64,000 bases of DNA from a virus. Lineage: Duplodnaviria > Caudoviricetes. This document shows positions 828-53,380 of this stretch, piece after piece. Both the position numbers and the translations under genes were made by a program. Under the pieces are notes generated by a model. That model worked only from the letters and a program-made list of their open reading frames with translations. It ran no database searches and had not been told where the DNA came from. The stretch spans positions 1-64,000 of IMG/VR virus record IMGVR_UViG_3300010429_001696; one strand, written 5' to 3'. How positions within the stretch are numbered: position 1 is the stretch's first letter; every line of letters starts with the position of its first letter.

Positions 828-3800
828 ATGAAGAAATTATTGATGATATTAAGTCACTGTTCAACAGGTGGGATGCCTCAAGTTGCTTGTAAAAGAATTG
901 AATTAATAAAAAATGACATAGATGTCTATGTTGTTGAATATGATAACATATCCGATCATTTCATCATTCAAAAAAATAGAATAAAAAAACTTTTAAAATC
1001 AAATCATTTTTTCACTCTTGGTAAAGATAAATTTGAGCTTCTTGATATAATAGAAAAAATACAACCAGATTATATCCACATGGAGGAAATGCCAGAATTG
1101 TTCATGTCATATGATCTAGCCACTGAATTATATAAGAAAGATAGAAAATACAAAATTTTTGAGACAACACATTCATCTGATTTTAACACAGATGACAAGA
1201 CTTTTTATCCAGATAAATTTCTTTTTGTTTCGCAATATAACTGTTATAAATTTAATAAATTCGGCATACCAACAGAAGTAATTGAATATCCGGTTGAAAA
1301 GAATAAAGTTAGTCAAGAAGTCAAATTAGAAAAAATGCGAAAATTGGGGCTAGATCCTAAATTCAAACATGTAGTGAATGTTGGACTTTTTACTCCTAGA
1401 AAAAATCAGGCATACGCTTTTGAAATAGCCAGAAAACTTGTGGATCAGCCAATAAAATTTCATTTCATTGGAAATCAAGCTGATAATTTCAAAACTTACT
1501 GGGAGCCGTTGATGAAAAATAAACCCAACAATTGTGTTTTATGGGGTGAAAGAGATGATGTAGATGATTTTTTGGACGCTTGTGATTTGTTTTTATTTAC
1601 TTCTATGGGATTTCGTTGGAACAAAGAATTGAATCCACTTGTTATAAAGGAAGCTCTTCAACACCAAATACCACAATTTTTATTTCCTCTGGATGTTTAT
1701 AATAGAAAATATGATATTGAAGAAACTATTCATTATTTAAAGGGAGATCCTGATATAGATAATAGACTTATAAGAGATTTTCTTTTTGAAAGAAAAAATG
1801 TTCCTTGGAATAATAAAAATGTTAAATACAAAATCAGGGCTGTTCATCTTTTATTGGAAGAAGATGATAGAAAATCAGAATCTATAAAAAATATAGAAAA
1901 ATTAAAAGATTATGGCATAGATTATGTTCAACATATAAACAAAAGATATACACAAGATCCACCAAAAGAAAATTGTGCTCGTCCGCAAGATGTTGGTAGA
2001 ATTGGAGCTTATTCTTTACGAGGACCGCATTACGGAAACTACACATCATTTAAAAATGCCATATTATCAGAGTTCACGGATGATATTGATTTTTTGATGG
2101 TTTTCGAATCAGATTGTATATTAAATGTGCCTGTAGAAGAATTTGCTGAAAAAATATACAAAGCTTGCGATTATATTCTCAAAGAAAGAATATATTATAT
2201 GTCATTTGGTGATGATCGCAATCTTAGGACTGGCGAAACAGTGTCCTCTGTTGAAAGAAAAATAGATGATGTCGATTGGATGTATATAACAAATAAAATT
2301 ATTGGTATTCAATCAATTATGTTTCCAAAATTTGCCAGAAATTATATAAACAGAGCTTATAGTACAACTTTATGGGATGTGTCGGATTTGATGTTCAATG
2401 ATATGTTTAGCTCAAAAACAAAAGGTATCGCTCCAAGATTAACTACCCAGATAGAGGGAATATCTACTATACAAGGTGAAAAAATACAGCATTTTTTATT
2501 GAAAGACATTAATAATTTTGTGAATGATAAATCTCCAAATGATGTTGTTATAGAGTATAATAAAAATGATAATAGATTTCATTTGTGTCTAAGCGATTTT
2601 TATCAAAAAGATATTAATAACATAAGAGTTGTGGTCCATATGGATGAAAATAAAAATGTTTTTGATACAACAACTACCCTATCGCCTTGGGGTTCGATAT
2701 GGATAGAACTATATGAAACATCAAAACATAATGATTTTTACTTTGATATTTATTATATGGATAAATTTCTATTCACAAAACATATGAGACTTGATAATGT
2801 TAGAGAAAAAAAGAGCATAGATGATATTGAAAAAATGTTAAATGAAATTAGAGAAAAAGAAAATGAGAGAGAAGTGAAAGAAATCGATCCAGAATTATTT
2901 ATTGTTAGTTATGATAAGACAGATGATAAAATTTATTTATCATATAAAGGTGATGGAGAACCAGTTTTCAATATTAAAATTAAAAATATTAAAAGTGGGG
3001 ATGTTGTTTTTGATCAAAAAGAAACTCAATTTTCTAAAGAATTTAATAACTGGATAAAATTAGACAATAGAAATCCTTATGGTTATGAAATAATTTATAA
3101 TAATACGGATGATTTGTTCTTGTTCTCCAAAGATTTGATATTGATGAAAATAGAAGCGGTGGTGGAAGATAGAAAAGAGTATAAAGAAATTCATAGAGAA
3201 ATTCAACCTGTTGTAGAAAGAAAAATCTCATCATCAAATTTCATAGATGAAGATATTTACTTGGTTATGACTTATCCAGATACAAAGATTAAAGAGAATA
3301 TAACCAAACAATGTTTAAATAGTCTGAAAAACAATGGTAAAAAAATAATATTAGCATCTCATTATCCAGTTGATAAAGAATTACAGGCGATGGCAGATTA
3401 TTATTTATATGATTCTTATAATCCGTTGATCAATCACACATTGTATAATTATTATTGGTCAATGATACCCGAGGGGAAAGTAGAAATATATCTGGATAAA
3501 ATTGATCAAAAATATCAATTAAATCAATCTCTTACTGTTCTGAATAATATCAAAAACGCAACTACTTTTGCTTATAAAATGGGATATAAAAATCTTATTT
3601 CAATAAGTTATGATTTTATTTTCAGTGAAGCGGATTTAAGTAAAATTGATGACATTTGTGATAGACTAAGAAAATATGAAAAGAATGGTTATTTTATGAG
3701 ATTTAAAGAAGGTGATATGACTTTATTAAAAAGTGTCTTCTTTATAACAAATTTGGAATTTTTTGAAAAAACATTTTCTAATCCTCGAACACCTGAGGAA

Positions 3801-5267
3801 TATAATAAAGAATGCTCACAGCTTGGGGTGAACAATTTCTTGGAGAACTATTTCTATAAGAAGCTCATTGATTATGAAGACGATCTTCTTATAGCGGACA
3901 CAAATGAAGATGAATTATTTAAAAATTCAAAAATAAATTTATTTTCTGGAGTTGAATATTTGACTTTACTGCCCGTTAAAAACGACAAAAGAAGTTTCAT
4001 TGTTTGGTTTAATTCGTCCAACATAACAGACAATAGAAGAATAGAATTTGAATATAAGAATGGAGATTTTATTGAGAGATCAACTCATTATATAAAAGAT
4101 CGAACATATTATATGAAAAAAATAACATTAAATGATGGAGATAATTATTCTATAACTGCAAAATTTATTGATTCTGTTAATAATCAAATTATATCAGTAA
4201 AAAATTATAATGTCAATTTGAATAATATTAATGATTTAAACATATATGGTGTTTTTACAGACAATAAAATAAAATCATCCTCAATAGAAGATAATTTTAC
4301 AATAAAATTTGATCCCGAGACAAATAACATATATTTCAAATCCATTGAAGATTTTCAGGGGAAAATATCCGTGATGGATTCTTATTCAAAAACAGCTTTT
4401 CATTGGTCAAAAACAAATATGAACAAGAATATTGAATATTATATAAATCCAATACCAAAGGGGGCTTTTGATTTTGAAAAAGATCCATATATCAATGGAT
4501 TTGATATATCATTCTATGATATGGATGACAATTTCTTATTTAACAAAATAATACCAACAAAAAAAGAGCCCGTGAATGTCGACGCTGTTATTCCACTAGG
4601 AATCACACCTTTTGACTGTTTATATTTTTTATGGAGAGATTTCTTTATTAATAAAACTTATGATGATTTTTTAAACAAAATAGGACTAGGAATAGAAACT
4701 GTTGTTGATCTTGGTGCCAATCAGGGTTTATTTACATATCTGATGTTGTTAAGAGGGGCTGAAGATATATATGCTGTCGAGGCTGTGAAGTCTTGTTGTG
4801 ATAACATGGAAAAAATGTTTAAAGATAATGATAATGTTTTTATTATTAATAAAGCCATATCAGATGATAATTCTATGGTTGATATATTTGTTAATCGTGT
4901 GAATACAACAGTGAGTTGTAGAGATCTGGAAAAATGTAAAAAACATCTTCCAAATTCAATAGATGGATATGATAAAATTTCAGTAGAAGGAATAACAATA
5001 AACAATTTAATAAAAGAAAAAAACATAGATAGAATAGATTTGTTGAAAGTTGATATTGAAGGAGATGAATATATGATGTTTGATACCATAACATATCGAA
5101 ATCTAATGAAGATAGAAAATATGATAATAGAGTTCCATCACAATCAAAATAATGATCTGGATTTAATTTTAAATAGATTAAAAGAAAATGGTTTCCATTA
5201 TCAAATAGTCAAACTTGATGATAATAATGGAGGAACTTTATATGTTTCAAAAAATAATATTTTTTAA
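828..5267 (+). CDS. Multidomain glycosyltransferase (GT-B N-terminus) with C-terminal FkbM-type methyltransferase
   Basis: GGMPQ, VGLFTPRKNQ, GERDDVDDFLDACDLFLFTS..ELNPLVIKEA (GT4-like); C-terminal VVDLGANQG...LLKVDIEGDE...IEFH. Confidence 0.85.
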   Translation: MKKLLMILSHCSTGGMPQVACKRIELIKNDIDVYVVEYDNISDHFIIQKNRIKKLLKSNHFFTLGKDKFELLDIIEKIQPDYIHMEEMPELFMSYDLATELYKKDRKYKIFETTHSSDFNTDDKTFYPDKFLFVSQYNCYKFNKFGIPTEVIEYPVEKNKVSQEVKLEKMRKLGLDPKFKHVVNVGLFTPRKNQAYAFEIARKLVDQPIKFHFIGNQADNFKTYWEPLMKNKPNNCVLWGERDDVDDFLDACDLFLFTSMGFRWNKELNPLVIKEALQHQIPQFLFPLDVYNRKYDIEETIHYLKGDPDIDNRLIRDFLFERKNVPWNNKNVKYKIRAVHLLLEEDDRKSESIKNIEKLKDYGIDYVQHINKRYTQDPPKENCARPQDVGRIGAYSLRGPHYGNYTSFKNAILSEFTDDIDFLMVFESDCILNVPVEEFAEKIYKACDYILKERIYYMSFGDDRNLRTGETVSSVERKIDDVDWMYITNKIIGIQSIMFPKFARNYINRAYSTTLWDVSDLMFNDMFSSKTKGIAPRLTTQIEGISTIQGEKIQHFLLKDINNFVNDKSPNDVVIEYNKNDNRFHLCLSDFYQKDINNIRVVVHMDENKNVFDTTTTLSPWGSIWIELYETSKHNDFYFDIYYMDKFLFTKHMRLDNVREKKSIDDIEKMLNEIREKENEREVKEIDPELFIVSYDKTDDKIYLSYKGDGEPVFNIKIKNIKSGDVVFDQKETQFSKEFNNWIKLDNRNPYGYEIIYNNTDDLFLFSKDLILMKIEAVVEDRKEYKEIHREIQPVVERKISSSNFIDEDIYLVMTYPDTKIKENITKQCLNSLKNNGKKIILASHYPVDKELQAMADYYLYDSYNPLINHTLYNYYWSMIPEGKVEIYLDKIDQKYQLNQSLTVLNNIKNATTFAYKMGYKNLISISYDFIFSEADLSKIDDICDRLRKYEKNGYFMRFKEGDMTLLKSVFFITNLEFFEKTFSNPRTPEEYNKECSQLGVNNFLENYFYKKLIDYEDDLLIADTNEDELFKNSKINLFSGVEYLTLLPVKNDKRSFIVWFNSSNITDNRRIEFEYKNGDFIERSTHYIKDRTYYMKKITLNDGDNYSITAKFIDSVNNQIISVKNYNVNLNNINDLNIYGVFTDNKIKSSSIEDNFTIKFDPETNNIYFKSIEDFQGKISVMDSYSKTAFHWSKTNMNKNIEYYINPIPKGAFDFEKDPYINGFDISFYDMDDNFLFNKIIPTKKEPVNVDAVIPLGITPFDCLYFLWRDFFINKTYDDFLNKIGLGIETVVDLGANQGLFTYLMLLRGAEDIYAVEAVKSCCDNMEKMFKDNDNVFIINKAISDDNSMVDIFVNRVNTTVSCRDLEKCKKHLPNSIDGYDKISVEGITINNLIKEKNIDRIDLLKVDIEGDEYMMFDTITYRNLMKIENMIIEFHHNQNNDLDLILNRLKENGFHYQIVKLDDNNGGTLYVSKNNIF

Positions 5268-5297
5268 AAGATTTGAATAAAAAAATAATAACATTAA

Positions 5298-7445
5298 ATG
5301 AAAATAGCACAGATAAATTTAGGATTAATTGAAATACCACCAAAAAGCTGGGGAGCTATCGAAAAGGTTATATGGAACTATAAACTTGAATTAGAGAAGC
5401 TTGGAAATCAAGTAGATATAGTTTATCCTTGGGAATTATATGATGGAGATAAATTAAAATATGATATTGTTCATTTTCATGCTGCCAATCAAGCGATAGA
5501 TACTTGGCGAGATTCAGGTCTCCCGTATGTGTTTTCGACACACGATCACCATGTGGTTAGATATGGCAAGTCATCTTCATTATATTCTAAGAATTTTTTA
5601 GCTATGAAGCAATCTGTGGCTTCAATAACTTATGCTGAGTTTTTGGTGGATTATTTTGATAAAACGGACAAACTTTATTATATACCACATGGAGTTGATA
5701 ATAAGATATATAGAGATAAAGGAATAAGAAATTCATCAAAACACAAACTTTTATGTGTTGCAAATAATGGTTATGCTGATGATCCAAAAAGTGATAGAAA
5801 AGGATTTAGATATGCCATTGAGGCCGCTAGAATGTTGAACATGGATATAACAATAGTTGGACCCGAGAACAACATGAATTTTTTCAGAGCCAATGATGAT
5901 CTATTGTCTTATGATAAATTAAAAATGATAAAAGATCCAAATGAAGAAGAGCTTGTGAATATTTATAACGAGCATACTATATTTTTGCATCTTTCTGAAT
6001 TAGAAGCGGGTCACCCAAATCTTACTTTACTCGAAGCGATGGCTTGCGGACTGCCTATAATTGGAACTTATAACGGTAAACGTCCTCTAATGGGCCTCGT
6101 TAAATGTAGTAGAAACTCAAAGGAAGTTAAAATGAAAATAGAAGAAGTTATTCAAAATTGGGATGAATATCATCAACTAGCCTTAGAAACTGGAAAGAAA
6201 TATGATTGGTCGAATGTAGTTAAAGAATTAAATGATTTTTATACATTTACTGTTTCTGTTAATAATACATATAGTAATGAAGATGTTAGACAAAGAGTTG
6301 TAAAAGCTTATGAAAATTCTACTCAAACTATAAGGGACTCAGTTGTGCCAAAAACAAAATTTAATATAAATTTTAATGATGGAGCATTTATCGAAATGTT
6401 GTCTCCTATAGATAAAAAAATAAAAGTGGATTTCATCGATAAAGACACAAATAATGTTGTTTATAACCTGAATATGGGATCGAACACTTGGGCAAAAACC
6501 AACACAAAATATTATAAAAATTGGCGAGTAAAAGTAAGTGGTGATGAAGAATTTACATATGAGATGGAATTAAAAGGTAGCAATGTTCTCATCGATTTTC
6601 AAAGCAGCTCGATAGGGGATACTTTGGCTTGGATACCTTATGCTGAGGAATTTAGAAAAAAACACGAGTGTGTTGTTTATTGCTCTATACATAACAATTT
6701 AGAAAAACTTTTTGAAAACGAATACAAAGATATTATATTCATAAAACCTGGCACTCAAATTGATTATTTATATGCGACATATAAACTAGGATGGTTTTCG
6801 CCACCTTGGGGTGGAAGCCGTGATGTTCATCCAAACGATTATAGAACAATGCCGCTACAAAAAACAGCATCTGATATACTTGGGCTAGATTATAAAGAAA
6901 TAGTGCCAAAAATAACAATACCAAAACAAGGAAGACCCATAGGTAGAAAATATGTTGTCATAGCCGAATATTCAACAGCCAATGCCAAACATTGGTTATA
7001 TCCAGGTGGATGGCAAAAAATAGTCAATTGGTTGAAAGAGAACGGATTAGAGGTTATGGTTATAAGCAAACAAGATACTAATTTAAAAGGAGTTATAAAA
7101 GAAACAGGCGACATGCCTTTAGAAAAAAGAATAAATCAAATAAATCATTCAGAATTTATGATAACTATCGGAAGTGGGCTGGCTTGGATAGCATGGGCTG
7201 TTGGCAAAAAAGTTGTTATGATCTCTGGCTTCAGTAAGCCGTTCTGCGAATTTAAATCAAATTGCATTAGAATAATAAACGAAAATGTTTGTAATGGATG
7301 TTTCAATGATGAAAGATATGAATTTGATAGAGGGGATTGGAATTGGTGTCCAGCACATAAAGACACTTCAAGAATGTTTGAATGCACGAAAACCATAACG
7401 CCAGAATTTGTCATGGAAGAAATAAAAAAGAATAATTTGTTGTAA
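5298..7445 (+). CDS. GT4 glycosyltransferase fused to TibC/Aah-like autotransporter heptosyltransferase domain
   Basis: WGAIEK and EAGHPNLTLLEAMACGLP; C-terminal SSIGDTLAWIPYAEEF, GSGLAWIAWAVGKKVVMISGFS and Cys cluster CNGC...WCPAH...FECTKTI. Confidence 0.85.
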   Translation: MKIAQINLGLIEIPPKSWGAIEKVIWNYKLELEKLGNQVDIVYPWELYDGDKLKYDIVHFHAANQAIDTWRDSGLPYVFSTHDHHVVRYGKSSSLYSKNFLAMKQSVASITYAEFLVDYFDKTDKLYYIPHGVDNKIYRDKGIRNSSKHKLLCVANNGYADDPKSDRKGFRYAIEAARMLNMDITIVGPENNMNFFRANDDLLSYDKLKMIKDPNEEELVNIYNEHTIFLHLSELEAGHPNLTLLEAMACGLPIIGTYNGKRPLMGLVKCSRNSKEVKMKIEEVIQNWDEYHQLALETGKKYDWSNVVKELNDFYTFTVSVNNTYSNEDVRQRVVKAYENSTQTIRDSVVPKTKFNINFNDGAFIEMLSPIDKKIKVDFIDKDTNNVVYNLNMGSNTWAKTNTKYYKNWRVKVSGDEEFTYEMELKGSNVLIDFQSSSIGDTLAWIPYAEEFRKKHECVVYCSIHNNLEKLFENEYKDIIFIKPGTQIDYLYATYKLGWFSPPWGGSRDVHPNDYRTMPLQKTASDILGLDYKEIVPKITIPKQGRPIGRKYVVIAEYSTANAKHWLYPGGWQKIVNWLKENGLEVMVISKQDTNLKGVIKETGDMPLEKRINQINHSEFMITIGSGLAWIAWAVGKKVVMISGFSKPFCEFKSNCIRIINENVCNGCFNDERYEFDRGDWNWCPAHKDTSRMFECTKTITPEFVMEEIKKNNLL

Positions 7446-7465
7446 AAGAATAAGGACTATCTACA

Positions 7466-7503
7466 TGAAAAACCAGAAAATATTAATATTTTCTGGTTTT
7501 TCA
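7466..7503. terminator. Perfect 38-bp palindrome, likely intrinsic terminator
   Basis: tgaaaaaccagaaaatattaatattttctggtttttca directly after the GT operon. Confidence 0.65.
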
Positions 7504-7538
7504 GTTTTTATATATAACATAAAAAATATTTTTTCAAT

Positions 7539-8693
7539 ATGAAACATGTGAAATCGTATGATGAGTTAAATGAGTCTATATTTGGAGATTTAGGGAGACT
7601 TGATCCAAAAAGATATGACAATGATAAAAAGTTTTTAAAACTCTATAAAGAAATTATTGATGATTTCAATAAATATGATCAAGATTTAAGAAAAGTGGCT
7701 ATAATAAATAATAAGGGCAAATCAATAACATCTAGTGAAATAAATGTTGGAGACCGCGCGACATTAACTTATGTTTTTGGCAAATTTCATCCGGTTTATA
7801 ATAATATACATACAGGAAATAGTAGAGCTGGAAAAAGAAAAATAAAAATAAGTTATATACCATTTTCAATAACTCTTAGGAAAAACGAACTTGAAAAGAT
7901 GTTTAAAACTAGTAGGATAAATTTAAAAAAAGTTAGAGTAAAAGAAGAAAAAACAATAGATAATCTTGAATATAATCCAAATATTTCTAAAAATTATGGC
8001 ATTTTTGAGGAGCCAACTGAATCCGATAGAAAAAAAATGGCCATGTATCACGAAATAGAGGACGAATATAGAGTGTCGGCCGACGTAGCTGGAAAATTAT
8101 TAAAAGCTTTTGTGGATGAATATCATCGTCAATATCCTAGTATAAAAGGTAAGTATATGAATAGTATGGAAATTTCAGATGCCAAAGCAGGCATAAAACC
8201 AGTTTTAAAATACATAGATGTGATAAATAAGGATGGTGAAGAGCTAATACTTGATATAAGAGAAGGAGATGATGAAAAGGAGATCAGAGATATGTTAAAG
8301 AATATGACAAAAAAAGAATACGATGCCTATTGTGAAAAAAAGAAAAAAGAGACATACGGGGAAAAATGGAAGAAAGACGAAGAATTGAAAAAGGCTGGAA
8401 TTGAAAAATGGAAAAACAAGTTTATTAATTTGTTTAAAAAATATAATATTGAAACTTGCCCCTATGGTGGAGGGGATAAAAGTTTTGATAATTTTGATCT
8501 TAGATATTATGGATATGAAATTCAAGTGGCTTTTTATGTGAATAAAGACATAAGTGAAAATGATTTAGATGAAAGAATAAAAAAATTATCAAAAGAAGAT
8601 TTTGAAAACTATAATTTTAAATATAGATTAGATCAAGATTACTCTACCAAAAAAACATGGTATGTCCATATTGTTTTAGAAGAAAATGATTAA
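7539..8693 (+). CDS. Hypothetical protein with capsid-targeting-like leader
   Basis: MKHVKSYDELNE N-terminus; TTATATATA motif upstream. Confidence 0.7.
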   Translation: MKHVKSYDELNESIFGDLGRLDPKRYDNDKKFLKLYKEIIDDFNKYDQDLRKVAIINNKGKSITSSEINVGDRATLTYVFGKFHPVYNNIHTGNSRAGKRKIKISYIPFSITLRKNELEKMFKTSRINLKKVRVKEEKTIDNLEYNPNISKNYGIFEEPTESDRKKMAMYHEIEDEYRVSADVAGKLLKAFVDEYHRQYPSIKGKYMNSMEISDAKAGIKPVLKYIDVINKDGEELILDIREGDDEKEIRDMLKNMTKKEYDAYCEKKKKETYGEKWKKDEELKKAGIEKWKNKFINLFKKYNIETCPYGGGDKSFDNFDLRYYGYEIQVAFYVNKDISENDLDERIKKLSKEDFENYNFKYRLDQDYSTKKTWYVHIVLEEND

Positions 8694-9294
8694 AGATTTT
8701 GAAAAATATAACTTTATAGATTTCGTCAAAAGTTTAAATATAAATTTAGATGATTTCAATTTATCGGATGAGAATTTCGATCATAAATCCATGATACATG
8801 GTGTAAATCATGTTTATAGAGTTATGTTTAATTGTTTTTTGATAGGAAGTAAAATGGGGGATATAAGAAATACAAGAAATGCTTTTTTCGCAGCTTTCTT
8901 ACATGATTTGGCAAGAAAAACAGATGCTGCTTGCAAAATACATGGAAGAGAGTCAGCCAAAACAAAACTACCTTTATATCTAGATGTTCTTTACAGAAAT
9001 GGGGCGGATGAAAAAGATATAAAATCAATAAAGACCGCCATAGAAAACCATAGCGATGCTTATGAATTAGAAAAAGAAAATCCATATTACAAGACAACAT
9101 CAATATTGAGAGATGCCGATGGAATGGATCTTGTTAGACTGGATAGAACAATAAATCCTAATATTTTAAGGAATAGAGAAAGCGCTGGCTTGATAGATAA
9201 GACAACAAAATTATATAACCATACAGTTTTCAAAAAATATGATAAATTTTACGATTTTTTAGATGATGGAATAAATATAGTTTTTAAAAAATAA
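8686..9294 (+). CDS. HD-domain phosphohydrolase
   Basis: HGVNHVYRV...FLHDLAR...HGRESA...NHS...LRDADGMDLVR. Confidence 0.85.
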   Translation: MIKDFEKYNFIDFVKSLNINLDDFNLSDENFDHKSMIHGVNHVYRVMFNCFLIGSKMGDIRNTRNAFFAAFLHDLARKTDAACKIHGRESAKTKLPLYLDVLYRNGADEKDIKSIKTAIENHSDAYELEKENPYYKTTSILRDADGMDLVRLDRTINPNILRNRESAGLIDKTTKLYNHTVFKKYDKFYDFLDDGINIVFKK

Positions 9295-9352
9295 TAATAA
9301 TGATAATATATTGATATTGAAATATTTTAATTTTTATTTCTATCAACTCTAT

Positions 9353-10102
9353 TTATTTCGAATCCAAAGGTCTTAAATTTGAAAAGTGATTCAATTTTAA
9401 AAGAATTTCTTCTGTCGTTGCGGTTTTCAATTCAATTATATGGTCTATATCCCATCCATATTTATAATCACCATTATATTTCCCATAATTTTCCCAATTC
9501 ATCCATGGCTCGAATTGTTTTTCTATGTGTTCTTTTAATGTCAAAAACGAGCAACCAATTATTTCTTCTATTTTATTCGTTTTTTTATATCTTCCTCTTC
9601 TTATGGATTTATTTATCATTGGGCAGATAATACATTTTAATCTGAACAAGCTGTCTGATTCTTTTCTATTTTTAGTATAGATCTTTCTTTTCTCGTTCAA
9701 TAATTCTCTGTTTTCAATATAATATTTCTTATTATATTCTTTTATTTTTTCTGAATTTTTGTTGCTTAATATTTTTTCCTTGTTGGTTTGATAATATTTC
9801 TTTTTTTGTTCATTTATAACATCTTTGTTCTCTTGTCTATATTTCATATTTTTCTCAAGAATATTTTCTCTGTTTTTTTGAAAATAAATTTTTTGAGAAT
9901 TCAATAGGGAGTCTTTGTTTTCAAGGTAATACTTTTTATTATATTCATTTTGTTTTTCTTTATTGTCTATTCTATACTTTTTTTTATAATTTTGTATTTT
10001 TTCGATATTTTTTTCTTGATATTTCTTATTGCGTTCTTTTATTTTCTCTTTATCTTTGAGATATCTTCTTCTTTCATATATTTTTGAAATTTCCTTATCC
10101 AA
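9353..10102 (-). CDS. HNH endonuclease-like protein with Lys/Glu/Tyr-rich helical repeats
   Basis: EKQFEPWMNWENYGK...WDIDHI...LNHFSNLRPL; N-terminal KKYYxENK repeats. Confidence 0.75.
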   Translation of the reverse strand: MDKEISKIYERRRYLKDKEKIKERNKKYQEKNIEKIQNYKKKYRIDNKEKQNEYNKKYYLENKDSLLNSQKIYFQKNRENILEKNMKYRQENKDVINEQKKKYYQTNKEKILSNKNSEKIKEYNKKYYIENRELLNEKRKIYTKNRKESDSLFRLKCIICPMINKSIRRGRYKKTNKIEEIIGCSFLTLKEHIEKQFEPWMNWENYGKYNGDYKYGWDIDHIIELKTATTEEILLKLNHFSNLRPLDSK

Positions 10103-10103
10103 T

Positions 10104-10490
10104 TTATCTCAATAATTTTATTAAATCTTCAACCAATATGGTTATTAATTTCTTGCCATTGATCTCTACATTGGGGATGTTTTTAATTATCGAAAATGCG
10201 GAACTACCATCTATTTCAAGATTTTCGATATGTTCTTTTAATAATTCATTATGAGAATAATAAACTTTCAATTCATCAAGAAACATTTTTAGATCAAATC
10301 CTTTTCTATTGTTATATTTTATCATTTGAAGTTCGTTATCTTGCTTCTCAATCAAAATATACCACAATTTTTGTTTTGATACTTTTATACGTTCCAAGAA
10401 ATTATAAGCCGATGCCGCTTTCGTGTTCTTCGGCATTTTAGCCACATGTCCGTGCAAATGTATCAAATCATCTTTTTCGTTATCTACCAT
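10104..10490 (-). CDS. Hypothetical protein (paralog of C-terminal part of 32114..32827)
   Basis: KLWYILIEKQ..KGF..IDGSSAFSIIKNIP aligns with KIWYCMTEKQ..KGF..IKGNDNFAILSNVP. Confidence 0.7.
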   Translation of the reverse strand: MVDNEKDDLIHLHGHVAKMPKNTKAASAYNFLERIKVSKQKLWYILIEKQDNELQMIKYNNRKGFDLKMFLDELKVYYSHNELLKEHIENLEIDGSSAFSIIKNIPNVEINGKKLITILVEDLIKLLR

Positions 10491-10585
10491 ATCTTGAAAT
10501 GAATTTTAAATTATATATAAAGAAAAAAAGGGCTAAAAAGGCGATTTTTCAAATTAATATATAATAAAAAAATAAAATAAGAAAT

Positions 10586-10819
10586 ATGAAAAATTTAAAA
10601 CTATACGAGCAATTTGAAATCGGTGATGATGACGTTAGTGATGATCAAATTTTAAAGAAGATGGAGCAAAATAAAGAGATAGATAAATTGGCTGAACAAG
10701 AATTCCGATCATTAAAAGATTTGCTTGCGAAAGAATCAAAAAGAGATGCTGATATAGCCGAATTGTGGTTCGGAATAGGATTTAGAAGAGGTTATAAAAA
10801 AAATAAAATAAAAAATTGA
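10586..10819 (+). CDS. Small protein with capsid-targeting-like leader
   Basis: MKNLKLYEQF; TTAATATATA upstream. Confidence 0.7.
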   Translation: MKNLKLYEQFEIGDDDVSDDQILKKMEQNKEIDKLAEQEFRSLKDLLAKESKRDADIAELWFGIGFRRGYKKNKIKN

Positions 10820-11946
10820 TTAAAAAATTTAAAATTTTTTTAAATGAGAAATATGAAGATATTCTAAAAAGTTATGGTAATGTAGCCAAAAATCTTCAAG
10901 ATGAAAGAGGTCACACTCCAAATGTATTCGGTCGCTTTGCGCATATCCCGTCAAACGGACTAGCAGAAAAATTATTGGAAAAATATTATGAACCAGGATT
11001 TAAATTATTAGACATAGGGTGTGGTCTGGGTAATATTTTAAAATTGGGCAATGAAATCGGATATCAATCAACAGGAATAGAAATAAACGAATCTTTAAAA
11101 AAATATCATGAAGGATTAAATGTGATTTATGGTGATGTTTTAAATATAGATCTAAAATTTATAAAGGATTTTGATGTTATATATCTATATAGACCATTGG
11201 GTCCATTAAACAAATGTAATAAATTATTTGAAAAATTATACAAAAATTGTAAAGATAATTGTAAAATAATATATGTTTATTCTTCTCAGTTAGAATTGGG
11301 TTTAAAAAGAAAATTTAATTTTGAAAAATTCGATACTGAGTTTACTTTCATGACGGATAGACCATATGACAAAAATTTCGAGAACTATTATTCGATATTA
11401 ACTCCTATAAAAAATGTAGAAGATGTTGATGCAAAAGAAGTTTTAAACAAAGCTATTAAAGAGCTTTCTAAGTATAGAGTAATAGATAATGAAGATTATA
11501 GTAGATCAGATCAAAAATATGGATCAACGTTTGTGTGTGACAATATAAACAACATAACAGATTTTTTGAGCCATTTAGAAAAATCATATCATTTAATTGA
11601 TAGCAACAATTTGGATATCAAATTTGCTCATACTTTTTATATCGAATATTCAGAAAAAGAAGAAGATTACAATAGAATAAAAATGAAATCTCCACTCGGG
11701 CGAGGCAAATATTATCCAGAATTTGACCCCACACCAAAAATAATGTATCTACCAATGGTTATATGGAGAATGAGCGGAATTGATATCGGAATCGAAAATA
11801 GACTTAAAAGGTTAGATATCATCAATTCTATTAAAAGAGATTTAAAAAGAATAGAAAATTATAAATTAAAATTTTTTAAATTATCTGTACATATGATTTA
11901 TTCTAAGATTGATGGCGAAATATATGAATTAATATATAAAATCTAA
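10816..11946 (+). CDS. Class I SAM-dependent methyltransferase with leader
   Basis: LLDIGCGLG, GIEIN, GDV, DVIYLYRP; N-terminal KKFKIFLNE. Confidence 0.75.
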   Translation: MIKKFKIFLNEKYEDILKSYGNVAKNLQDERGHTPNVFGRFAHIPSNGLAEKLLEKYYEPGFKLLDIGCGLGNILKLGNEIGYQSTGIEINESLKKYHEGLNVIYGDVLNIDLKFIKDFDVIYLYRPLGPLNKCNKLFEKLYKNCKDNCKIIYVYSSQLELGLKRKFNFEKFDTEFTFMTDRPYDKNFENYYSILTPIKNVEDVDAKEVLNKAIKELSKYRVIDNEDYSRSDQKYGSTFVCDNINNITDFLSHLEKSYHLIDSNNLDIKFAHTFYIEYSEKEEDYNRIKMKSPLGRGKYYPEFDPTPKIMYLPMVIWRMSGIDIGIENRLKRLDIINSIKRDLKRIENYKLKFFKLSVHMIYSKIDGEIYELIYKI

Positions 11947-11952
11947 TTTTTT

Positions 11953-12861
11953 CTAAAAATTTTTTAAAATGTTGCTAAATATATTTGAAATTTTTACATA
12001 ATATATTTCATTATATGAAGAATATTTATCATAATAAAAAATTTCTTTTATAGTTTTACTTGATATATCATCCAATTCTTTATATGATTTCTCTATATAC
12101 TCTTTATATTTTAATTTGAAAAATTTATTCCATTTATTATAATACTCAATCAAATCTTTTTTATCATGACATTCTTCACCATTAAAATATTGATTAAATA
12201 GTTTAGTAAAATTTAATAAATCGCTTATATCAGAAAATTGATCAATAAATTCGTTTGGGTCAAAATCTTTCAAAGATTCAAAAAATTTATATAAATATGA
12301 AGACTCAAATAATTTATACAATTCATCTTTACTACAATCACAATTTCTAAACTGAGCATATAACATTGTATATCTTGCTATTAACTCGTGTTCCAATGTC
12401 AAATAAACCAAATATAAAAATTTATCATATCTATTGTCAATATCTTTTTTTATTATAGAAACATATAAAGACTTCACAAAATCCAACATATCACTATCAT
12501 TCTCAATTGTGTAAATATCGTATATGTGTCTAATTTCGTGGGCGACAACAGATATCAGTTTATTCTTATCTATTTTTTTATCATATATTTCAATTGGTAT
12601 AATTATGTTTTCTCTGTTTCTATATAATAAATCATAGATGTTTACATTCGAATAATATACACTTTTTTCATCATCTTCGATAAAATTAATATGAACATTA
12701 GCAATATTATCTAGCAGCCCATATTTTCTCAAATCTAAATAAACGACACAAGATGAATCTACATTTTTCAAATCTTCCTCGATATAACTGATTATATTTT
12801 TAATATCCTCGGGAATATAAGATTTGAACTCGTTTAAAAAATTTTGATAATTATAAATCAT
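11953..12861 (-). CDS. Putative zincin metalloprotease-like protein
   Basis: VAHEIRH (HExxH) plus downstream EHELIAR; leader YQNFLNE. Confidence 0.55.
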   Translation of the reverse strand: MIYNYQNFLNEFKSYIPEDIKNIISYIEEDLKNVDSSCVVYLDLRKYGLLDNIANVHINFIEDDEKSVYYSNVNIYDLLYRNRENIIIPIEIYDKKIDKNKLISVVAHEIRHIYDIYTIENDSDMLDFVKSLYVSIIKKDIDNRYDKFLYLVYLTLEHELIARYTMLYAQFRNCDCSKDELYKLFESSYLYKFFESLKDFDPNEFIDQFSDISDLLNFTKLFNQYFNGEECHDKKDLIEYYNKWNKFFKLKYKEYIEKSYKELDDISSKTIKEIFYYDKYSSYNEIYYVKISNIFSNILKNF

Positions 12862-12901
12862 ATAAATATATATTCAATGAAATATCGTATGTTTTTGAAA
12901 G

Positions 12902-12973
12902 TTGAGATGAAAAGATTCGAACTTTTATCGGGTGATCCAAGAGTCACTAATGATGCCATTGCACCACATCTCA
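12902..12973 (-). tRNA. Atypical tRNA with 8-nt anticodon loop (CUCUUGGA; Lys-CUU or Gln-like)
   Basis: TGAGATG/CATCTCA acceptor, AAAAG-TTCGAAT-CTTTT T arm, GTGA/TCAC anticodon stem. Confidence 0.7.
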
Positions 12974-12976
12974 GAG

Positions 12977-13048
12977 TGGCGAGAGGGAATTTCGAAATCC
13001 CGGCCTAGCGAATATGAGTCGCTTGTTCTGCCTCTGAACTACCTCGCC
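12977..13048 (-). tRNA. tRNA-Met/Ile2 (CAT)
   Basis: GGCGAGG...AGCGA-CTCATAT-TCGCT...TCTCGCCA. Confidence 0.9.
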
Positions 13049-13160
13049 ATAATATTTTACAGAATACTTTTTTTGGACATATTTAAAAGACATGTTTTGG
13101 TTTTTTGTTGCTGTAAGTATTCTTTAGTTGTTTTGCTCATTAGATACCAGATTTTATTAG

Positions 13161-13233
13161 TTGCCCTGTCAGAGTATGATTCTGAATCTCAACATTCAAA
13201 GTGTTGCGTGATAGCCAATTTCACTACAAGGCA
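13161..13233 (-). tRNA. tRNA-Gln (TTG), non-canonical T loop ATCATAC
   Basis: TGCCTTG/CAGGGCA acceptor, CAACA-CTTTGAA-TGTTG. Confidence 0.85.
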
Positions 13234-13240
13234 GTATATC

Positions 13241-13492
13241 TTATATATTATATTTTTCGTATGTCTTCACCCATTTTTTAATCGCATTTCCACTAACGCC
13301 ATATTTTCTCCCAACACCACATAAACCAAATTCATCAATCTCATTTTTTAATTGCTCAAATGATGGTCTATCTACCTTTCTTCTAGATACAAAAGAATTC
13401 TTTATGTTGTTTTCTTTCTGTTTCAGTATAGACTTAAAATCATCTGGGATATACTTCTTAAATTCATTTAAAAAATCAAGATAATATTTCAT
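13241..13492 (-). CDS. Small protein: leader plus HTH like the C-terminus of phage HNH endonucleases
   Basis: MKYYLDFLNEFKKYIPDD; RRKVDRPS...GVGRKYGVSGNAIKKW. Confidence 0.65.
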   Translation of the reverse strand: MKYYLDFLNEFKKYIPDDFKSILKQKENNIKNSFVSRRKVDRPSFEQLKNEIDEFGLCGVGRKYGVSGNAIKKWVKTYEKYNI

Positions 13493-13559
13493 AAGGTTTT
13501 TAATTATATATTAAAAAATAATGATTTGGTTTAAATTTCAACATTTCAAAGAACTTTTG

Positions 13560-13645
13560 AGTCGACGGTCAGACTCGAACTGACATGCCTTTCGGTTTTT
13601 ACAATTTTGCAGATTGCTGGCTATTTCCAATTCACCCACGTCGAC
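13560..13645 (-). tRNA. tRNA-Cys (GCA) with enlarged variable region
   Basis: GTCGACG/CGTCGAC-T, GCAAT-CTGCAAA-ATTGT, variable AAAAACCGAAAGGCAT. Confidence 0.85.
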
Positions 13646-14526
13646 AAATTATTTAAATATTTTTGTTCATATTTTTTAATATCTTCTAAAAACCACACCT
13701 CAAAATCTAATCCTAATTTTTTTGCTGATTCCCATTTATTATAATCATCTTCTTTTATCCTGCCCTTTATCTCTAAATTTTTAATGCTATCATTGTTATT
13801 TATGATTCGAAAATCTATGATATAAGTGTGTTCATTTTTATCGATTCCAATATATTTTATTCTAACCTTACCATATTCCCAATCTTTGATCAAATTGATT
13901 TCTTTCATTTTATCTAAAATATAACAAGCTCTTAATTCATATGTTCCTTGAACTCTGATATCTTTATATTCTAACCATTTTGTTGTTCCACCAGCAACAT
14001 AATTCTTTCCAGTGTCGTAAGATTTTTTATTTACTTTGCTCCAATTTATATTAGAATTATGAACAGTTAACCATCCTCCTCTTTTTTTAGATGCACAACT
14101 AATACTGCAATATTTTTGATTTCTCTTAGCCCATTTTATTTCAAATTCTTTTTCACAATATTCACACTTTAATAATACTGTGTGACTATGGCATCCTTTA
14201 TCAGTCAAAGTTTTAGAAATTTTGTTTTTTGTTTCATCACTATGATTTCTGGAATTGGCGCATTTTCTTGAGCAGAATTTATTATATTTCCCTTTATCAA
14301 AATCGTTTTCAGTGATTCTAATATAGAAAATATTATTACATTTAGAACATTTTTGTTTTAATTCTATTCTTTTTGATTTTTCAACACCTTTAAATTTTTC
14401 TGAATTTTTTCTAATTCTCTCTTCTTTTTTGGGGTTTGAATCACAATTTGAAACATGTAAAGCATATAAACATTGTTTATCAACTTCTATTAATTTGTTA
14501 CACCATTTACAAATTTTACTATACAT
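13621..14526 (-). CDS. Zn-finger plus PD-(D/E)xK (TnsA-like) free-standing homing endonuclease
   Basis: Likely start MYSKICKWC at 14526; CxxC/FCSRKCANSR/YCSISCA motifs; QGTYELR..YIIDFRII..LEIKGR; 3' end overlaps tRNA-Cys. Confidence 0.75.
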   Translation of the reverse strand: MYSKICKWCNKLIEVDKQCLYALHVSNCDSNPKKEERIRKNSEKFKGVEKSKRIELKQKCSKCNNIFYIRITENDFDKGKYNKFCSRKCANSRNHSDETKNKISKTLTDKGCHSHTVLLKCEYCEKEFEIKWAKRNQKYCSISCASKKRGGWLTVHNSNINWSKVNKKSYDTGKNYVAGGTTKWLEYKDIRVQGTYELRACYILDKMKEINLIKDWEYGKVRIKYIGIDKNEHTYIIDFRIINNNDSIKNLEIKGRIKEDDYNKWESAKKLGLDFEVWFLEDIKKYEQKYLNNLSTWVNWK

Positions 14527-14605
14527 AATTATATATATAAAAATTTGCCGGTTCATAATAGAATCGAACTTAATATTTCCAATAATTTCAAAGAACTTAT
14601 CTAAG

Positions 14606-14908
14606 CGGTGCCGACCGGGCTCGAACCGGCGACTTCCTGCGTGCATTTTTTAAAACCTTTTTGTTTCCAAAAAGTTAGGACTATATCATCATCTCAGAGA
14701 GATGTTGGATGCTAATTTGGTATTATATTATATTGCTATAACCCCCAATAGTCTCTGCACCTTCCGTCTCTGACGGCTTGGCTCAGGATTACCATCTTTT
14801 TAAAAAAGTTAGGCTTCCCTGAATTCATCCAATTTTTCAATCATTATCGCTAATGAAAGCTGCCACTTCTGACAGGCAGGCATTCTAAACCAACTGAACT
14901 ACAGCACC
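14606..14908 (-). tRNA. tRNA-Asp (GTC) interrupted by group I intron
   Basis: 5' exon GGTGCTGTAGTTCAGTTGGTTTAGAATGCCTGCCTGT (14908-14872) plus 3' exon CACGCAGGAAGTCGCCGGTTCGAGCCCGGTCGGCACCG (14643-14606). Confidence 0.92.
14644..14871 (-). ncRNA. Group I intron (IC-like, ORF-less, 228 nt) at anticodon position 35/36
   Basis: Follows U, ends in G; core motifs AATTCAGGGAAGCC, GGTAATCCTGAGCCAAG, GTGCAGAGACTA, GATATAGTCC. Confidence 0.9.
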
Positions 14909-14978
14909 ATATTTTTTCAAAGCCAATAAATTAGCAAAGAAAATTAATTTTTTATCAATATTTCAATGAACTATTATG

Positions 14979-15063
14979 CGTCCCAGGAAGGATTCGAACC
15001 TACGTTGGATTTTCATCGTCGGGTTAACAGCCCGGACCGTTCGACCACTACGGCAACTGAGAC
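14979..15063 (-). tRNA. tRNA-Asn (GTT) with long variable arm
   Basis: GTCTCAG/CTGGGAC-G, CGGG-CTGTTAA-CCCG, variable arm GAT-GAAA-ATC. Confidence 0.85.
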
Positions 15064-15068
15064 TTTTG

Positions 15069-15155
15069 CGGTCCCTACGGGATTCGAACCCGTCTGAGAT
15101 ATTTCTATCAACCGATGTGACAGACCGGCAGCCACGCCTAGCAGCCCCAGAGACC
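15069..15155 (-). tRNA. tRNA-Asp (GTC) with long variable arm
   Basis: GGTCTCT/AGGGACC-G, CCGGT-CTGTCAC-ATCGG, variable arm GATA-GAAA-TATC. Confidence 0.85.
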
Positions 15156-17396: not shown

Positions 17397-17476
17397 TTGT
17401 GGTGGAGGGATTTGAACCCTCATACACCAGATTACGCTTTTAATGCATGTTTATAAGACATGTGCGATACACCACA
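17397..17476 (-). tRNA. tRNA-Ile (TAT)-like, lacking a normal D arm
   Basis: TGTGGTG/CACCACA-A, 7-nt connector, CATGT-CTTATAA-ACATG, 24-nt extra region, GAGGG-TTCAAAT-CCCTC. Confidence 0.75.
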
Positions 17477-17482
17477 ATATTG

Positions 17483-17558
17483 TACTCCCGATGGGACTCG
17501 AACCCACAACTTCCGCCTTGAAAGGGCGGCGACTTTAAACCAGTTCGTCTACAGGAGC
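17483..17558 (-). tRNA. tRNA-Glu (TTC)
   Basis: GCTCCTG/CGGGAGT-A, CCGCC-CTTTCAA-GGCGG. Confidence 0.92.
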
Positions 17559-17566
17559 TTATGATT

Positions 17567-17640
17567 TGGTAGCCTGTTTGGAAATCGAATCCAAATTGTC
17601 GATGTGAGAAACCGATCTCCTGCCATTAGAGGAACAGGCC
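17567..17640 (-). tRNA. tRNA-Glu (CTC) with encoded CCA
   Basis: GGCCTGT/ACAGGCT-ACCA, TCGGT-TTCTCAC-ATCGA. Confidence 0.88.
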
Positions 17641-17676
17641 ATATATTTTTTTTTCAAAGAACAATCAAAACATAAC

Positions 17677-17703
17677 AAAAAACCCAATCTTTTTTGATTG
17701 GGT
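17677..17703 (-). terminator. Attenuator terminator of tRNA operon 2
   Basis: ACCCAATC-AAAAAA-GATTGGGT followed by TTTTTGTT. Confidence 0.85.
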
Positions 17704-17738
17704 CTCTTATATAAAAAAGCATATAAAAATATTCCCAA

Positions 17739-45649: not shown

Positions 45650-45654
45650 ATTTT

Positions 45655-47084: not shown

Positions 47085-47139
47085 GTGAAAAAGAATAATT
47101 TTTTTATTTTATAAAAAATATTTATAGAAAAGTTTTTTC

Positions 47140-48004: not shown

Positions 48005-48100
48005 ACTTACTATTTATTAAATTTTAATGGTTTGTTCTAAAAAAATGAAAAAAAAAAAATTAAAATAAACTTTTTTCTTTTTGAGCACTAATATTTCATT

Positions 48101-49428: not shown

Positions 49429-49701
49429 CAAAATTTTGAACAATCTTACACAATATTTAACAATGGAAAACCTTAGTGTAAAGAATATGATGTCAAACTA
49501 ATAAATCGGATGTTCTAAAAGTTGATAAGAATAAAATAAAATACAGACCTAATTGGATATATCAAATGATGTTGAAGTTTTTTCAAAATGTTACAAAAAA
49601 TGATAATTATTTAATATTAGAATCCGATTCTGCTGTATTGAAAAAATTACCCTTTTTTAAAAAGATGTATACCATAATAGGCAAAAAATATTTTAAAATA
49701 A

Positions 49702-50472: not shown

Positions 50473-50474
50473 CA

Positions 50475-53378: not shown

Positions 53379-53380
53379 AT

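What the first reader, a model, noticed from the sequence alone, without database searches (positions are those of the whole stretch)
17397..17476. tRNA-Ile(UAU) with no D arm in the normal place and a D-loop-like segment 3' of the anticodon arm
Only TATCGCA links acceptor and anticodon stems, while a 24-nt insert CATTAAAAGCGTAATCTGGTGTAT follows the anticodon arm. It holds GCG (could pair with the connector CGC) and TAATCTGGT (D-loop-like GG). A UAU anticodon reads AUA without TilS lysidine. The two ATA codons in the cognate leader argue this odd RNA is functionally tied to AUA decoding, as a tRNA or a decoy.
Basis: partly seen in the sequence, partly recalled or inferred. Interest (0 to 1): 0.7.

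Follow-up and report, generated by a model that had tools for sequence, protein, structure and literature searches.

The report
Phage isoleucine tRNA with rewired D-arm
This 80-base phage gene is a conserved transfer RNA, most likely for the isoleucine codon AUA, whose D-arm pieces are all present but joined in a different order from the textbook cloverleaf; I found no paper describing this layout, and ARAGORN misses it.

Summary
On the minus strand of 17397-17476 lie a 7-bp acceptor stem, a 7-nt connector, a UAU anticodon arm, 24 extra nt and a normal T arm.

It is not a decayed gene. Pattern scans found over 40 distinct relatives in phage contigs, metagenomes and bacterial tRNA arrays.

- **The helix is real.** The connector triplet always pairs with a triplet 3' of the anticodon arm: 100% of cells in the 20-sequence alignment and 107/108 in the 36 parsed members, with compensatory changes at all three pairs. 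RNAalifold finds the same helix unaided.
- **The tRNA core is kept.** U8, A14, GG, A21 and A73 are kept. The R15-Y48 tertiary pair covaries (G-C 19, A-U 15, 2 exceptions).
- **The window belongs to the family.** A model built without the window scores it at 61.4 bits, against 39.7 for Rfam tRNA.

One D-stem strand plus the D-loop has moved behind the anticodon arm.

Function is inferred, not shown. ATA makes up 58% of this phage's Ile codons. Nearly all members carry Ile-box anticodons (UAU, GAU, CAU). One phage array covers 19 amino acids canonically, with Ile supplied only by a rewired gene.

The scan has noted this layout before on other DNA.

The parts
17397..17476 (-). Whole rewired tRNA-Ile(UAU) gene, 80 nt, no encoded CCA
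   Evidence: Rfam tRNA 39.7 bits; family model R1 61.4 bits, E 2e-13
17470..17476 (-). Acceptor stem, 5' strand (RNA positions 1-7)
   Evidence: 7/7 pairs with 17398-17404; all 7 pairs covary in the family
17468..17469 (-). U8 A9
   Evidence: Invariant in 36/36 parsed members
17464..17467 (-). Strand equivalent to D-stem 3' strand (positions 22-25): U then CGC, placed directly after U8 A9
   Evidence: CGC pairs with GCG at 17435-17437; 107/108 cells paired in the family, double changes at all 3 pairs
17463..17463 (-). Position-26 equivalent (A)
   Evidence: Faces A at 17438 (26.44-like); C.A in 29/36 members, paired in some long forms
17446..17462 (-). Anticodon arm: 5-bp stem, loop CUUAUAA, anticodon UAU at 17453-17455
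   Evidence: stem pairs covary; U33 and A37 kept in all members
17438..17445 (-). Linker CAUUAAA plus A (44-like), bulged from the extended helix
   Evidence: Length varies in the family (mostly 4 nt, also 7, 10 or 11, once 2); motif AUUAAA shared with L303, L301 and L305
17434..17437 (-). Strand equivalent to D-stem 5' strand (positions 10-13): GCG then U, placed after the anticodon arm
   Evidence: Pairs with 17464-17466; U.U at 13.22 in 35/36 members; RNAalifold predicts the helix unaided
17422..17433 (-). Displaced D-loop and joiner: A14 A15 UCU G18 G19 U GU A21 U48
   Evidence: A14, GG and A21 invariant; A15-U48 fits the R15-Y48 covariation, G-C 19, A-U 15, 2 exceptions
17405..17421 (-). 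T arm: 5-bp stem, loop UUCAAAU
17397..17404 (-). Acceptor 3' strand and discriminator A73
   Evidence: A73 in 35/36 members
17482..17640 (-). Two canonical tRNA-Glu genes (CUC, UUC) directly upstream on the same strand, 5-nt spacer to the rewired gene: one tRNA array
   Evidence: ARAGORN and Rfam; terminator-like hairpin at 17675-17710 just upstream of the array

Best explanation
The element is a member of a conserved family of phage (and tRNA-array) transfer RNAs in which the tRNA core is threaded in a different order. The normal order is 8-9, D-stem 5' strand, D-loop, D-stem 3' strand, 26, anticodon arm, variable loop, T arm. Here the chain runs U8-A9, D-stem 3'-strand equivalent (U CGC), 26, anticodon arm, a bulged linker, D-stem 5'-strand equivalent (GCG U), D-loop (A14 R15 .. 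G18 G19 .. A21), Y48, T arm. The secondary structure is therefore a three-way junction. The short D helix stacks on the anticodon stem as one long hairpin, and the D-loop is the single strand that leads into the T arm. Shown here: the helix, the conserved core residues and the 15-48 covariation. Inferred: these let it fold into the usual L shape (U8-A14, R15-Y48, G18G19 with the T loop). Also inferred: it is cut out of the tRNA-Glu/tRNA-Glu/Ile transcript, receives CCA, is charged by the host IleRS (the phage has none) and reads AUA, this phage's main isoleucine codon, without needing lysidine from TilS.
For: Structure: on a MAFFT alignment of 20 relatives, the rewired helix is 100% paired, and all 3 pairs show changes on both sides. 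The 15-48 column pair is G-C 15 and A-U 5 with no exception. 0 of 500 shuffles reach any measure, and slid registers collapse to 32-49% paired. RNAalifold predicts the identical structure unaided. Among 36 unique members parsed by sequence anchors only, 107/108 helix cells pair. U8A9, A14 and A21 are 36/36, and A73 is 35/36. The window scores 61.4 bits with model R1, which was built without it. Its nearest form, L303, differs by compensatory changes in the acceptor, D, anticodon and T helices.

Function: anticodons are UAU 29, GAU 4, CAU 2, that is all three Ile-box types, plus one CCG. Members sit inside same-strand tRNA arrays with spacers of a few nt. In L133, 29 canonical tRNAs cover 19 amino acids, and Ile is supplied only by a rewired GAU gene. 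In L005 the only Ile genes are two rewired ones, GAU and UAU. In this phage ATA is 58% of Ile codons and the fifth commonest codon. The phage also has a canonical tRNA-Ile(GAU) for AUU/AUC.
Against: There is no expression, processing, aminoacylation or decoding data. For this single sequence, the nearest-neighbour energy of the proposed fold (-19.0 kcal/mol) is 1 kcal/mol worse than an alternative hairpin (-20.0), and the rewired helix has low pair probability. That alternative is not conserved in L303. The L-shaped fold is inferred from conserved residues, not modelled. No relative was found in five contigs that share a 67-71% identical terminase, but these are fragments. Mukai et al. report that six allo-tRNA(UAU) variants they tested were inactive in E. 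coli and may not be used for translation (PMC5389517), so a UAU anticodon alone does not prove a translational role.
Confidence: 0.7

Rival explanations
1. A tRNA-like RNA that keeps the tRNA shape but is not used on the ribosome. It could be a decoy or sponge for a host tRNA-targeting nuclease or modification enzyme, or a regulator, as has been suggested for many allo-tRNA(UAU) species.
For: Conservation of fold and anticodon loop would also be expected of a mimic. Mukai et al. found six tested allo-tRNA(UAU) variants inactive and linked such genes to toxin-antitoxin loci. The unusual wiring might impair some step of translation.
Against: The acceptor/T branch is a standard 7/5, with A73 kept in 35/36 members. 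All three Ile-box anticodons occur. Rewired genes fill the only empty amino-acid slot in otherwise complete arrays (L133, L005). The codon it would read is the phage's main Ile codon.
Confidence: 0.2
2. A working tRNA that is charged with an amino acid other than isoleucine, so that AUA is recoded or mistranslated in infected cells.
For: The rearranged core could change synthetase recognition. The same window carries other odd tRNAs. A few rewired members have Arg anticodons (L012 UCU, L159 CCG).
Against: A73 and Ile-box anticodons are kept across the family, and rewired GAU forms stand in for the ordinary tRNA-Ile in arrays. With ATA at 5.5% of codons, recoding would alter nearly every protein.
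Confidence: 0.05
3. A D-armless tRNA with an unstructured long variable region (boomerang or Y shape, as in animal mitochondria). On this reading the CGC/GCG match has no structural role.
For: Rfam aligns it that way. The single-sequence fold does not favour the short helix.
Against: All three pairs covary, 107/108 cells are paired, and RNAalifold recovers the helix. The D-loop residues and the 15-48 pair are conserved.
Confidence: 0.03
4. A decayed tRNA pseudogene or a rearrangement scar. The 9-of-10 repeat of the 5' acceptor strand just before the T arm could hint at a duplication.
For: RNA positions 1-10 and 46-55 match at 9 of 10 bases (read). ARAGORN does not call the gene.
Against: More than 40 distinct relatives have compensatory changes. 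The repeat is not shared by L303, whose acceptor differs while the D-loop segment is the same. So the repeat is a coincidence of this copy.
Confidence: 0.02

Closest known systems
Canonical bacterial and phage elongator tRNA-Ile (Rfam RF00005): tRNA-Ile(GAU), lysidine tRNA-Ile2(CAU) and the rare tRNA-Ile(UAU) of bacteria without TilS such as Mycoplasma mobile (the last from my own knowledge)
   Same: 7/5 acceptor/T branch, A73, standard T loop, 7-nt anticodon loop with U33 and A37, Ile-box anticodons, U8, A14, R15-Y48, G18G19, A21, location in tRNA arrays.
   Different: No D hairpin between positions 9 and 26. One D-stem strand and the D-loop lie 3' of the anticodon arm. The structure is a three-way rather than four-way junction. 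No variable loop crosses from position 44 to 48.
D-armless animal mitochondrial tRNA-Ser(GCU) and related truncated mt-tRNAs (PMC10412605, PMC7609411)
   Same: No D hairpin. A short connector joins the acceptor and anticodon stems. These are accepted as working tRNAs despite a non-cloverleaf fold.
   Different: Those RNAs have lost the D-arm and are called Y- or boomerang-shaped. That they also lack the D-loop/T-loop elbow contact is from my own knowledge. Here every D-arm element is kept and only reordered, and the RNA is full length (76-84 nt) and non-organellar.
allo-tRNAs (8/4 and 9/3), including allo-tRNA(UAU), of Mukai et al. 2017 (PMC5389517)
   Same: Irregular tRNAs found by metagenome mining in bacteria and phages. 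UAU is a predominant anticodon. They occur in clusters of odd tRNAs.
   Different: allo-tRNAs keep cloverleaf connectivity and have an 8/4 or 9/3 acceptor/T branch, a long V-arm hairpin and a long D stem with a tetraloop. The window's RNA is 7/5, has no V hairpin and has no D hairpin.
Permuted tRNA genes of the red alga Cyanidioschyzon merolae (PMC3728597)
   Same: The order of tRNA segments in the gene departs from the norm.
   Different: The paper's abstract says the 3' half of the coding sequence lies upstream of the 5' half. That the mature tRNA is restored to a normal cloverleaf by processing is from my own knowledge. Here the acceptor ends are in the normal place, and the mature RNA itself would carry the new connectivity.

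Membership tests
Canonical tRNA (Rfam RF00005 cloverleaf) | Score at or above the curated gathering threshold | tested here: met
   39.7 bits against 29
Canonical tRNA (Rfam RF00005 cloverleaf) | 7-bp acceptor stem with discriminator, 5-bp T stem with 7-nt UUCRAAU loop | tested here: met
   7/7 and 5/5 pairs, loop UUCAAAU, A73
Canonical tRNA (Rfam RF00005 cloverleaf) | 5-bp anticodon stem, 7-nt loop with U33 and purine 37 | tested here: met
   Loop CUUAUAA on a 5-bp stem
Canonical tRNA (Rfam RF00005 cloverleaf) | D hairpin between position 9 and position 26 | tested here: not met
   Only 4 nt where the model has 15; ARAGORN finds no gene
Canonical tRNA (Rfam RF00005 cloverleaf) | Aminoacylated and used on the ribosome | not testable with these tools
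   Needs wet-lab assays
Rewired-D-arm tRNA family (model R1, defined here) | U8-A9, then a 4-nt strand and position 26 directly before the anticodon arm; its three inner bases pair with a triplet 3' of the arm | tested here: met
   CGC with GCG in the window; in the family 107/108 cells pair and all 3 pairs covary
Rewired-D-arm tRNA family (model R1, defined here) | U-A-R .. U-G-G .. A-Y segment between that triplet and the T stem, with R15-Y48 covariation | tested here: met
   Window has A15 and U48; family has G-C 19, A-U 15, G.G 2
Rewired-D-arm tRNA family (model R1, defined here) | Significant score with a model built without the window | tested here: met
   61.4 bits, E 2e-13; next best place in the genome 19.2 bits
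AUA-reading tRNA-Ile | Anticodon UAU with A37, A38 and discriminator A73 | tested here: met
   Read from the sequence
AUA-reading tRNA-Ile | Charged by IleRS and reads AUA but not AUG | not testable with these tools
   Indirect support only: Ile-box anticodons in the family, arrays where it fills the Ile slot, ATA use
allo-tRNA (Mukai et al. 2017) | 8/4 or 9/3 acceptor/T branch | tested here: not met
   7/5 branch
allo-tRNA (Mukai et al. 2017) | Long V-arm hairpin and long D stem with tetraloop | tested here: not met
   The 24-nt segment forms no conserved hairpin of its own and there is no D hairpin
D-armless mitochondrial tRNA-Ser(GCU) type | D-arm elements lost, including the D-loop GG that docks on the T loop | tested here: not met
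   A14, R15, G18G19 and A21 are all present and conserved, only displaced

The most novel reading that the evidence does not exclude
This is a working elongator tRNA whose backbone threads the universal tRNA core in a different order. It would be a natural topological isomer of the cloverleaf, used outside organelles, common in phage tRNA arrays, invisible to the gene finder tested, and undescribed in the literature I could search. The rewiring may be adaptive, for example to tune how U34 reads AUA against AUG, or to escape host enzymes that recognise the normal D-arm.
Probability: 0.6. Interest if true: 0.85.

Novelty: new variant of a known kind. Interest (0 to 1): 0.8.

Why it matters
Outside shrunken mitochondrial tRNAs, cloverleaf connectivity is treated as universal, and tRNA finders assume it. 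This family keeps the tertiary contacts of the L shape but joins the strands in another order. If it works in translation, three things follow:
- It would show that the fold, not the wiring, is what the translation apparatus requires.
- Phage tRNA inventories are under-counted. ARAGORN found 0 of 42 distinct copies.
- It offers a natural test case for how RNase P, the CCA enzyme, IleRS, EF-Tu, modification enzymes and the ribosome read the tRNA core.

It may also show how AT-rich phages secure AUA decoding without TilS. A cultured bacterium with a copy (Chryseosolibacter histidini PWU4) makes this testable.

Tried and rejected
- **Pseudogene or duplication scar.** Rejected on conservation and covariation. 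The 9-of-10 repeat of the acceptor strand is private to this copy.
- **ARAGORN mitochondrial-mode reading** as tRNA-Leu(UAA) with an 11-nt D-loop. Rejected: it breaks the conserved UAU arm.
- **Single-sequence MFE hairpin**, RNA positions 29-36 with 48-55. Rejected: not conserved in L303.
- **Searches that found nothing.**
  - The exact-arm pattern in viral contigs found nothing.
  - My first metagenome pattern had too short a gap and found nothing. The corrected pattern found 5 contigs.
  - BLAST of a short-form member against cultured-phage records gave only a chance hit inside a protein gene.
  - Five contigs with a related terminase have no copy, but all are fragments.
  - Neighbouring ORFs are orphans and gave no synteny handle.
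- **Phage-encoded charging enzymes.** No IleRS, and no TilS above cut-off, is encoded by the phage.
- **Literature.** Five searches found no description of this layout.

Full report
**Setting.** The window is the first 64 kb of a 193,754-base virus record with 28.6% G+C. The record encodes a Terminase_6N large terminase and no NCLDV capsid match, so I read it as a large tailed phage. The finding lies on the minus strand at the end of a small tRNA array. The order is tRNA-Glu(CUC) at 17567-17640, tRNA-Glu(UUC) at 17482-17558, a 5-nt spacer, then the element at 17397-17476. A terminator-like hairpin lies just upstream of the array. A 66-codon ORF starts 20 nt downstream.

**The observation.** The description is exact. 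In order, the element has:
- a 7-nt acceptor strand;
- the connector U-A-U-C-G-C-A;
- a 5-bp stem with loop CUUAUAA (anticodon UAU);
- 24 nt;
- a 5-bp T stem with loop UUCAAAU;
- the complementary acceptor strand and A73.

Rfam's tRNA model matches above threshold (39.7 bits against 29). It does so only by deleting the D arm and inserting 21 nt in the variable region. ARAGORN does not report it.

**It is a family, not a relic.** I ran a pattern joining the UAU loop, a UGGU and the T loop at the unusual spacing. It found 66 viral contigs. Most show the same layout as the window, and a smaller group are class-II-like tRNAs noted under observations in passing. A second pattern without the anticodon, a scan of 185,579 species genomes and a metagenome scan added more. 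After filtering, 36 unique sequences from the model-fitted alignments A3-A5 could be parsed by sequence anchors alone. With the five metagenome copies and one more from those alignments there are 42.

The evidence for structure is as follows:
- **MAFFT alignment.** It holds 20 short-form members, none from the window. The triplet after U8-A9-U pairs with a triplet 3' of the anticodon arm in 100% of cells, with changes on both sides at all three pairs. No shuffle out of 500 reaches any measure. Sliding the partner by one to three columns drops pairing to 32-49%.
- **Independent prediction.** RNAalifold, given only the alignment, predicts exactly this structure.
- **All 36 parsed members.** 107 of 108 helix cells pair. 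The triplet combinations include CGG/CCG, CCC/GGG, AGG/CCU, GCC/GGC, CUC/GAG, CAC/GUG, ACC/GGU, CCG/CGG and the window's CGC/GCG.

**The tRNA core is kept.** These residues are invariant or nearly so:
- U8-A9;
- a U.U pair at the 13.22 position (35/36);
- A14 right after the 3'-located strand;
- the UGG of the D-loop;
- an A just before the last unpaired base (A21-like);
- A73 (35/36).

The base after A14 (R15) and the base just before the T stem (Y48) covary as G-C (19) or A-U (15), with two exceptions. This is the behaviour of the Levitt tertiary pair of ordinary tRNAs. Close relatives differ at this pair, for example L083 (G-C) and L126 (A-U), so the change has occurred more than once.

From this I read the chain as: 1-7, U8, A9, [22-25], 26, [27-43], linker, 44-like base, [10-13], A14, R15, G18 G19, A21, Y48, [49-65], [66-72], 73. 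The helix and the conserved residues are shown. That they assemble into the usual L shape is my inference, based on textbook knowledge of the layered tRNA core (U8-A14-A21 next to 15-48 and 13-22).

**The window's copy.**
- Model R1, built without the window, scores it at 61.4 bits (E 2e-13). The next best place in the genome scores 19.2 bits.
- It is an intermediate form. The linker between the anticodon stem and the returning strand is 7+1 nt, against 4+1 in the common 77-nt form and 10-11+1 in the 82-84-nt forms.
- Its nearest relative is L303:1685-1764, an 80-nt copy on a metagenome contig. L303 has the same linker motif and the same D-loop segment. It differs in the acceptor, D (CUC/GAG), anticodon and T helices, and all those differences are compensated. 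Two 84-nt copies (L301, L305) share the AUUAAA linker motif.
- For the single sequence, the thermodynamic model slightly prefers another hairpin (-20.0 against -19.0 kcal/mol). That hairpin depends on a chance repeat of the acceptor strand and is absent from L303.

**What it does.** No experiment is available, so function is inferred. The evidence for a working tRNA-Ile is:
- **Anticodons.** They are UAU (29), GAU (4) and CAU (2), the three anticodon types of the isoleucine box. There is one CCG among the parsed set and one UCU outside it, at L012:3536-3615.
- **Location.** The genes sit in same-strand tRNA arrays a few nt from ordinary tRNAs.
- **L133.** 29 canonical tRNAs cover 19 amino acids. 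Isoleucine is the only one missing, and a rewired GAU gene lies in the array.
- **L005.** The only Ile genes among twelve tRNAs are two adjacent rewired ones, GAU and UAU.
- **L104.** A rewired GAU gene sits beside a canonical UAU gene.
- **This phage.** A canonical tRNA-Ile(GAU) is present. ATA supplies 58% of isoleucine codons, at 54.7 per 1000, the fifth commonest codon.
- **Charging.** The phage encodes no IleRS, and no TilS above cut-off. Charging would therefore fall to the host enzyme. From established knowledge, a UAU anticodon needs no lysidine.

That many are expected in any 36 codons.

**Distribution.** Copies occur in these prokaryote assemblies:
- the isolate Chryseosolibacter histidini PWU4, inside a 17-tRNA array;
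- genome bins labelled Cyclobacteriaceae, Bacteroidetes, Myxococcota, Methylomirabilis and Fimenecus.

I did not determine whether these arrays lie in prophages.

**Comparison with the known.** Five full-text searches found no description of this layout.
- **allo-tRNAs** of Mukai et al. share the UAU anticodon and the metagenomic and phage setting. They keep cloverleaf wiring with 8/4 or 9/3 branches.
- **Mitochondrial D-armless tRNAs** have lost the arm rather than reordered it.
- **Permuted red-algal tRNA genes** place the 3' half of the coding sequence upstream of the 5' half. That processing restores a normal cloverleaf is my own knowledge.
- **Rfam** has no separate family for it.

Earlier notes of this scan describe the same layout on at least seven other genomes. 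I reached the reading before seeing them and tested their main claims here. Those claims were the rewired helix, GAU-anticodon members, presence in bacterial arrays, and ARAGORN blindness.

**Verdict.**
- The best reading is a working AUA-reading tRNA-Ile with a reordered D-arm (confidence 0.7).
- The main rival is a tRNA-shaped decoy or regulator (0.2).
- I class it as a new variant of a known kind.

Noticed in passing
window 14605-14908 (-), intron 14657-14883: A canonical tRNA-Asp(GUC) gene is split in its anticodon loop by a group I intron. Rfam Intron_gpI scores 93.5 bits against a threshold of 50 in a local search. The whole-window gathering pass had not listed it. ARAGORN with introns gives a 228-nt intron. 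The segment matches unannotated DNA of many jumbo phages at about 70% identity.
   Followed up: partly
window 13621-14646 (-): A 341-aa ORF with an HNH endonuclease match (PHROG 1271, E 6e-7) lies directly downstream of the intron-bearing tRNA-Asp. It could be a homing endonuclease.
   Followed up: no
window 14978-15063 and 15068-15155 (-): tRNA-Asn(GUU), 86 nt, and a second tRNA-Asp(GUC), 88 nt, have an extra base pair on the acceptor stem and similar 12-15-nt variable-arm hairpins. The latter gives a weak tRNA-Sec match of 25.5 bits. They resemble allo-tRNAs, in which GUC is a predominant anticodon. I did not test whether they are 8/4.
   Followed up: no
window 12901-12973 (-) and 13559-13645 (-): A tRNA with an 8-nt anticodon loop (CUUG), and an 87-nt tRNA-Cys(GCA) with a long unpaired variable region.
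   Followed up: no
L010:7816-7905, L012:4443-4532, L013:2426-2514, L027:3858-3946, L034:3275-3363: A second group of phage tRNA(UAU) genes of 89-90 nt. They have a normal D arm and a long variable arm whose loop carries a D-loop-like UAGAUUGG, and a CCA follows base 73 in the flank printed. They are possibly allo-tRNA(UAU) relatives.
   Followed up: no
L012:3536-3615 (+) and L159:3191-3264 (-): The rewired layout occurs with arginine anticodons, UCU (42.7 bits) and CCG (55.7 bits), so it may not be limited to isoleucine. ARAGORN instead parses the L159 copy as a 91-nt tRNA-Arg.
   Followed up: partly
L133 (27.7-kb viral contig), 3507-14364: An array of 29 canonical tRNAs covers 19 amino acids. 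Isoleucine is supplied only by a rewired GAU gene at 12888-12964.
   Followed up: yes
L151:1874-1943 and 2469-2542 (-): Two tRNA-like elements share an acceptor stem, a UAAUUGGU segment and a T arm. They carry a long hairpin without a 7-nt anticodon loop in place of the anticodon arm.
   Followed up: no
L014, L016, L062, L044, L006, L302, L304 (long-form members): The 10-11-nt linker of the 82-84-nt forms holds a conserved UAUAAU-like motif. In the window, L303, L301 and L305 the motif is AUUAAA. Its role is unknown; it might form base triples in the D-helix groove.
   Followed up: no
window 828-8693 and 43133-54439: A sugar-modification gene set: two large glycosyltransferase proteins (one with an FkbM methyltransferase domain), two DegT-family aminotransferases (one interrupted by an intein with a LAGLIDADG domain) and NeuB.
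   Followed up: no
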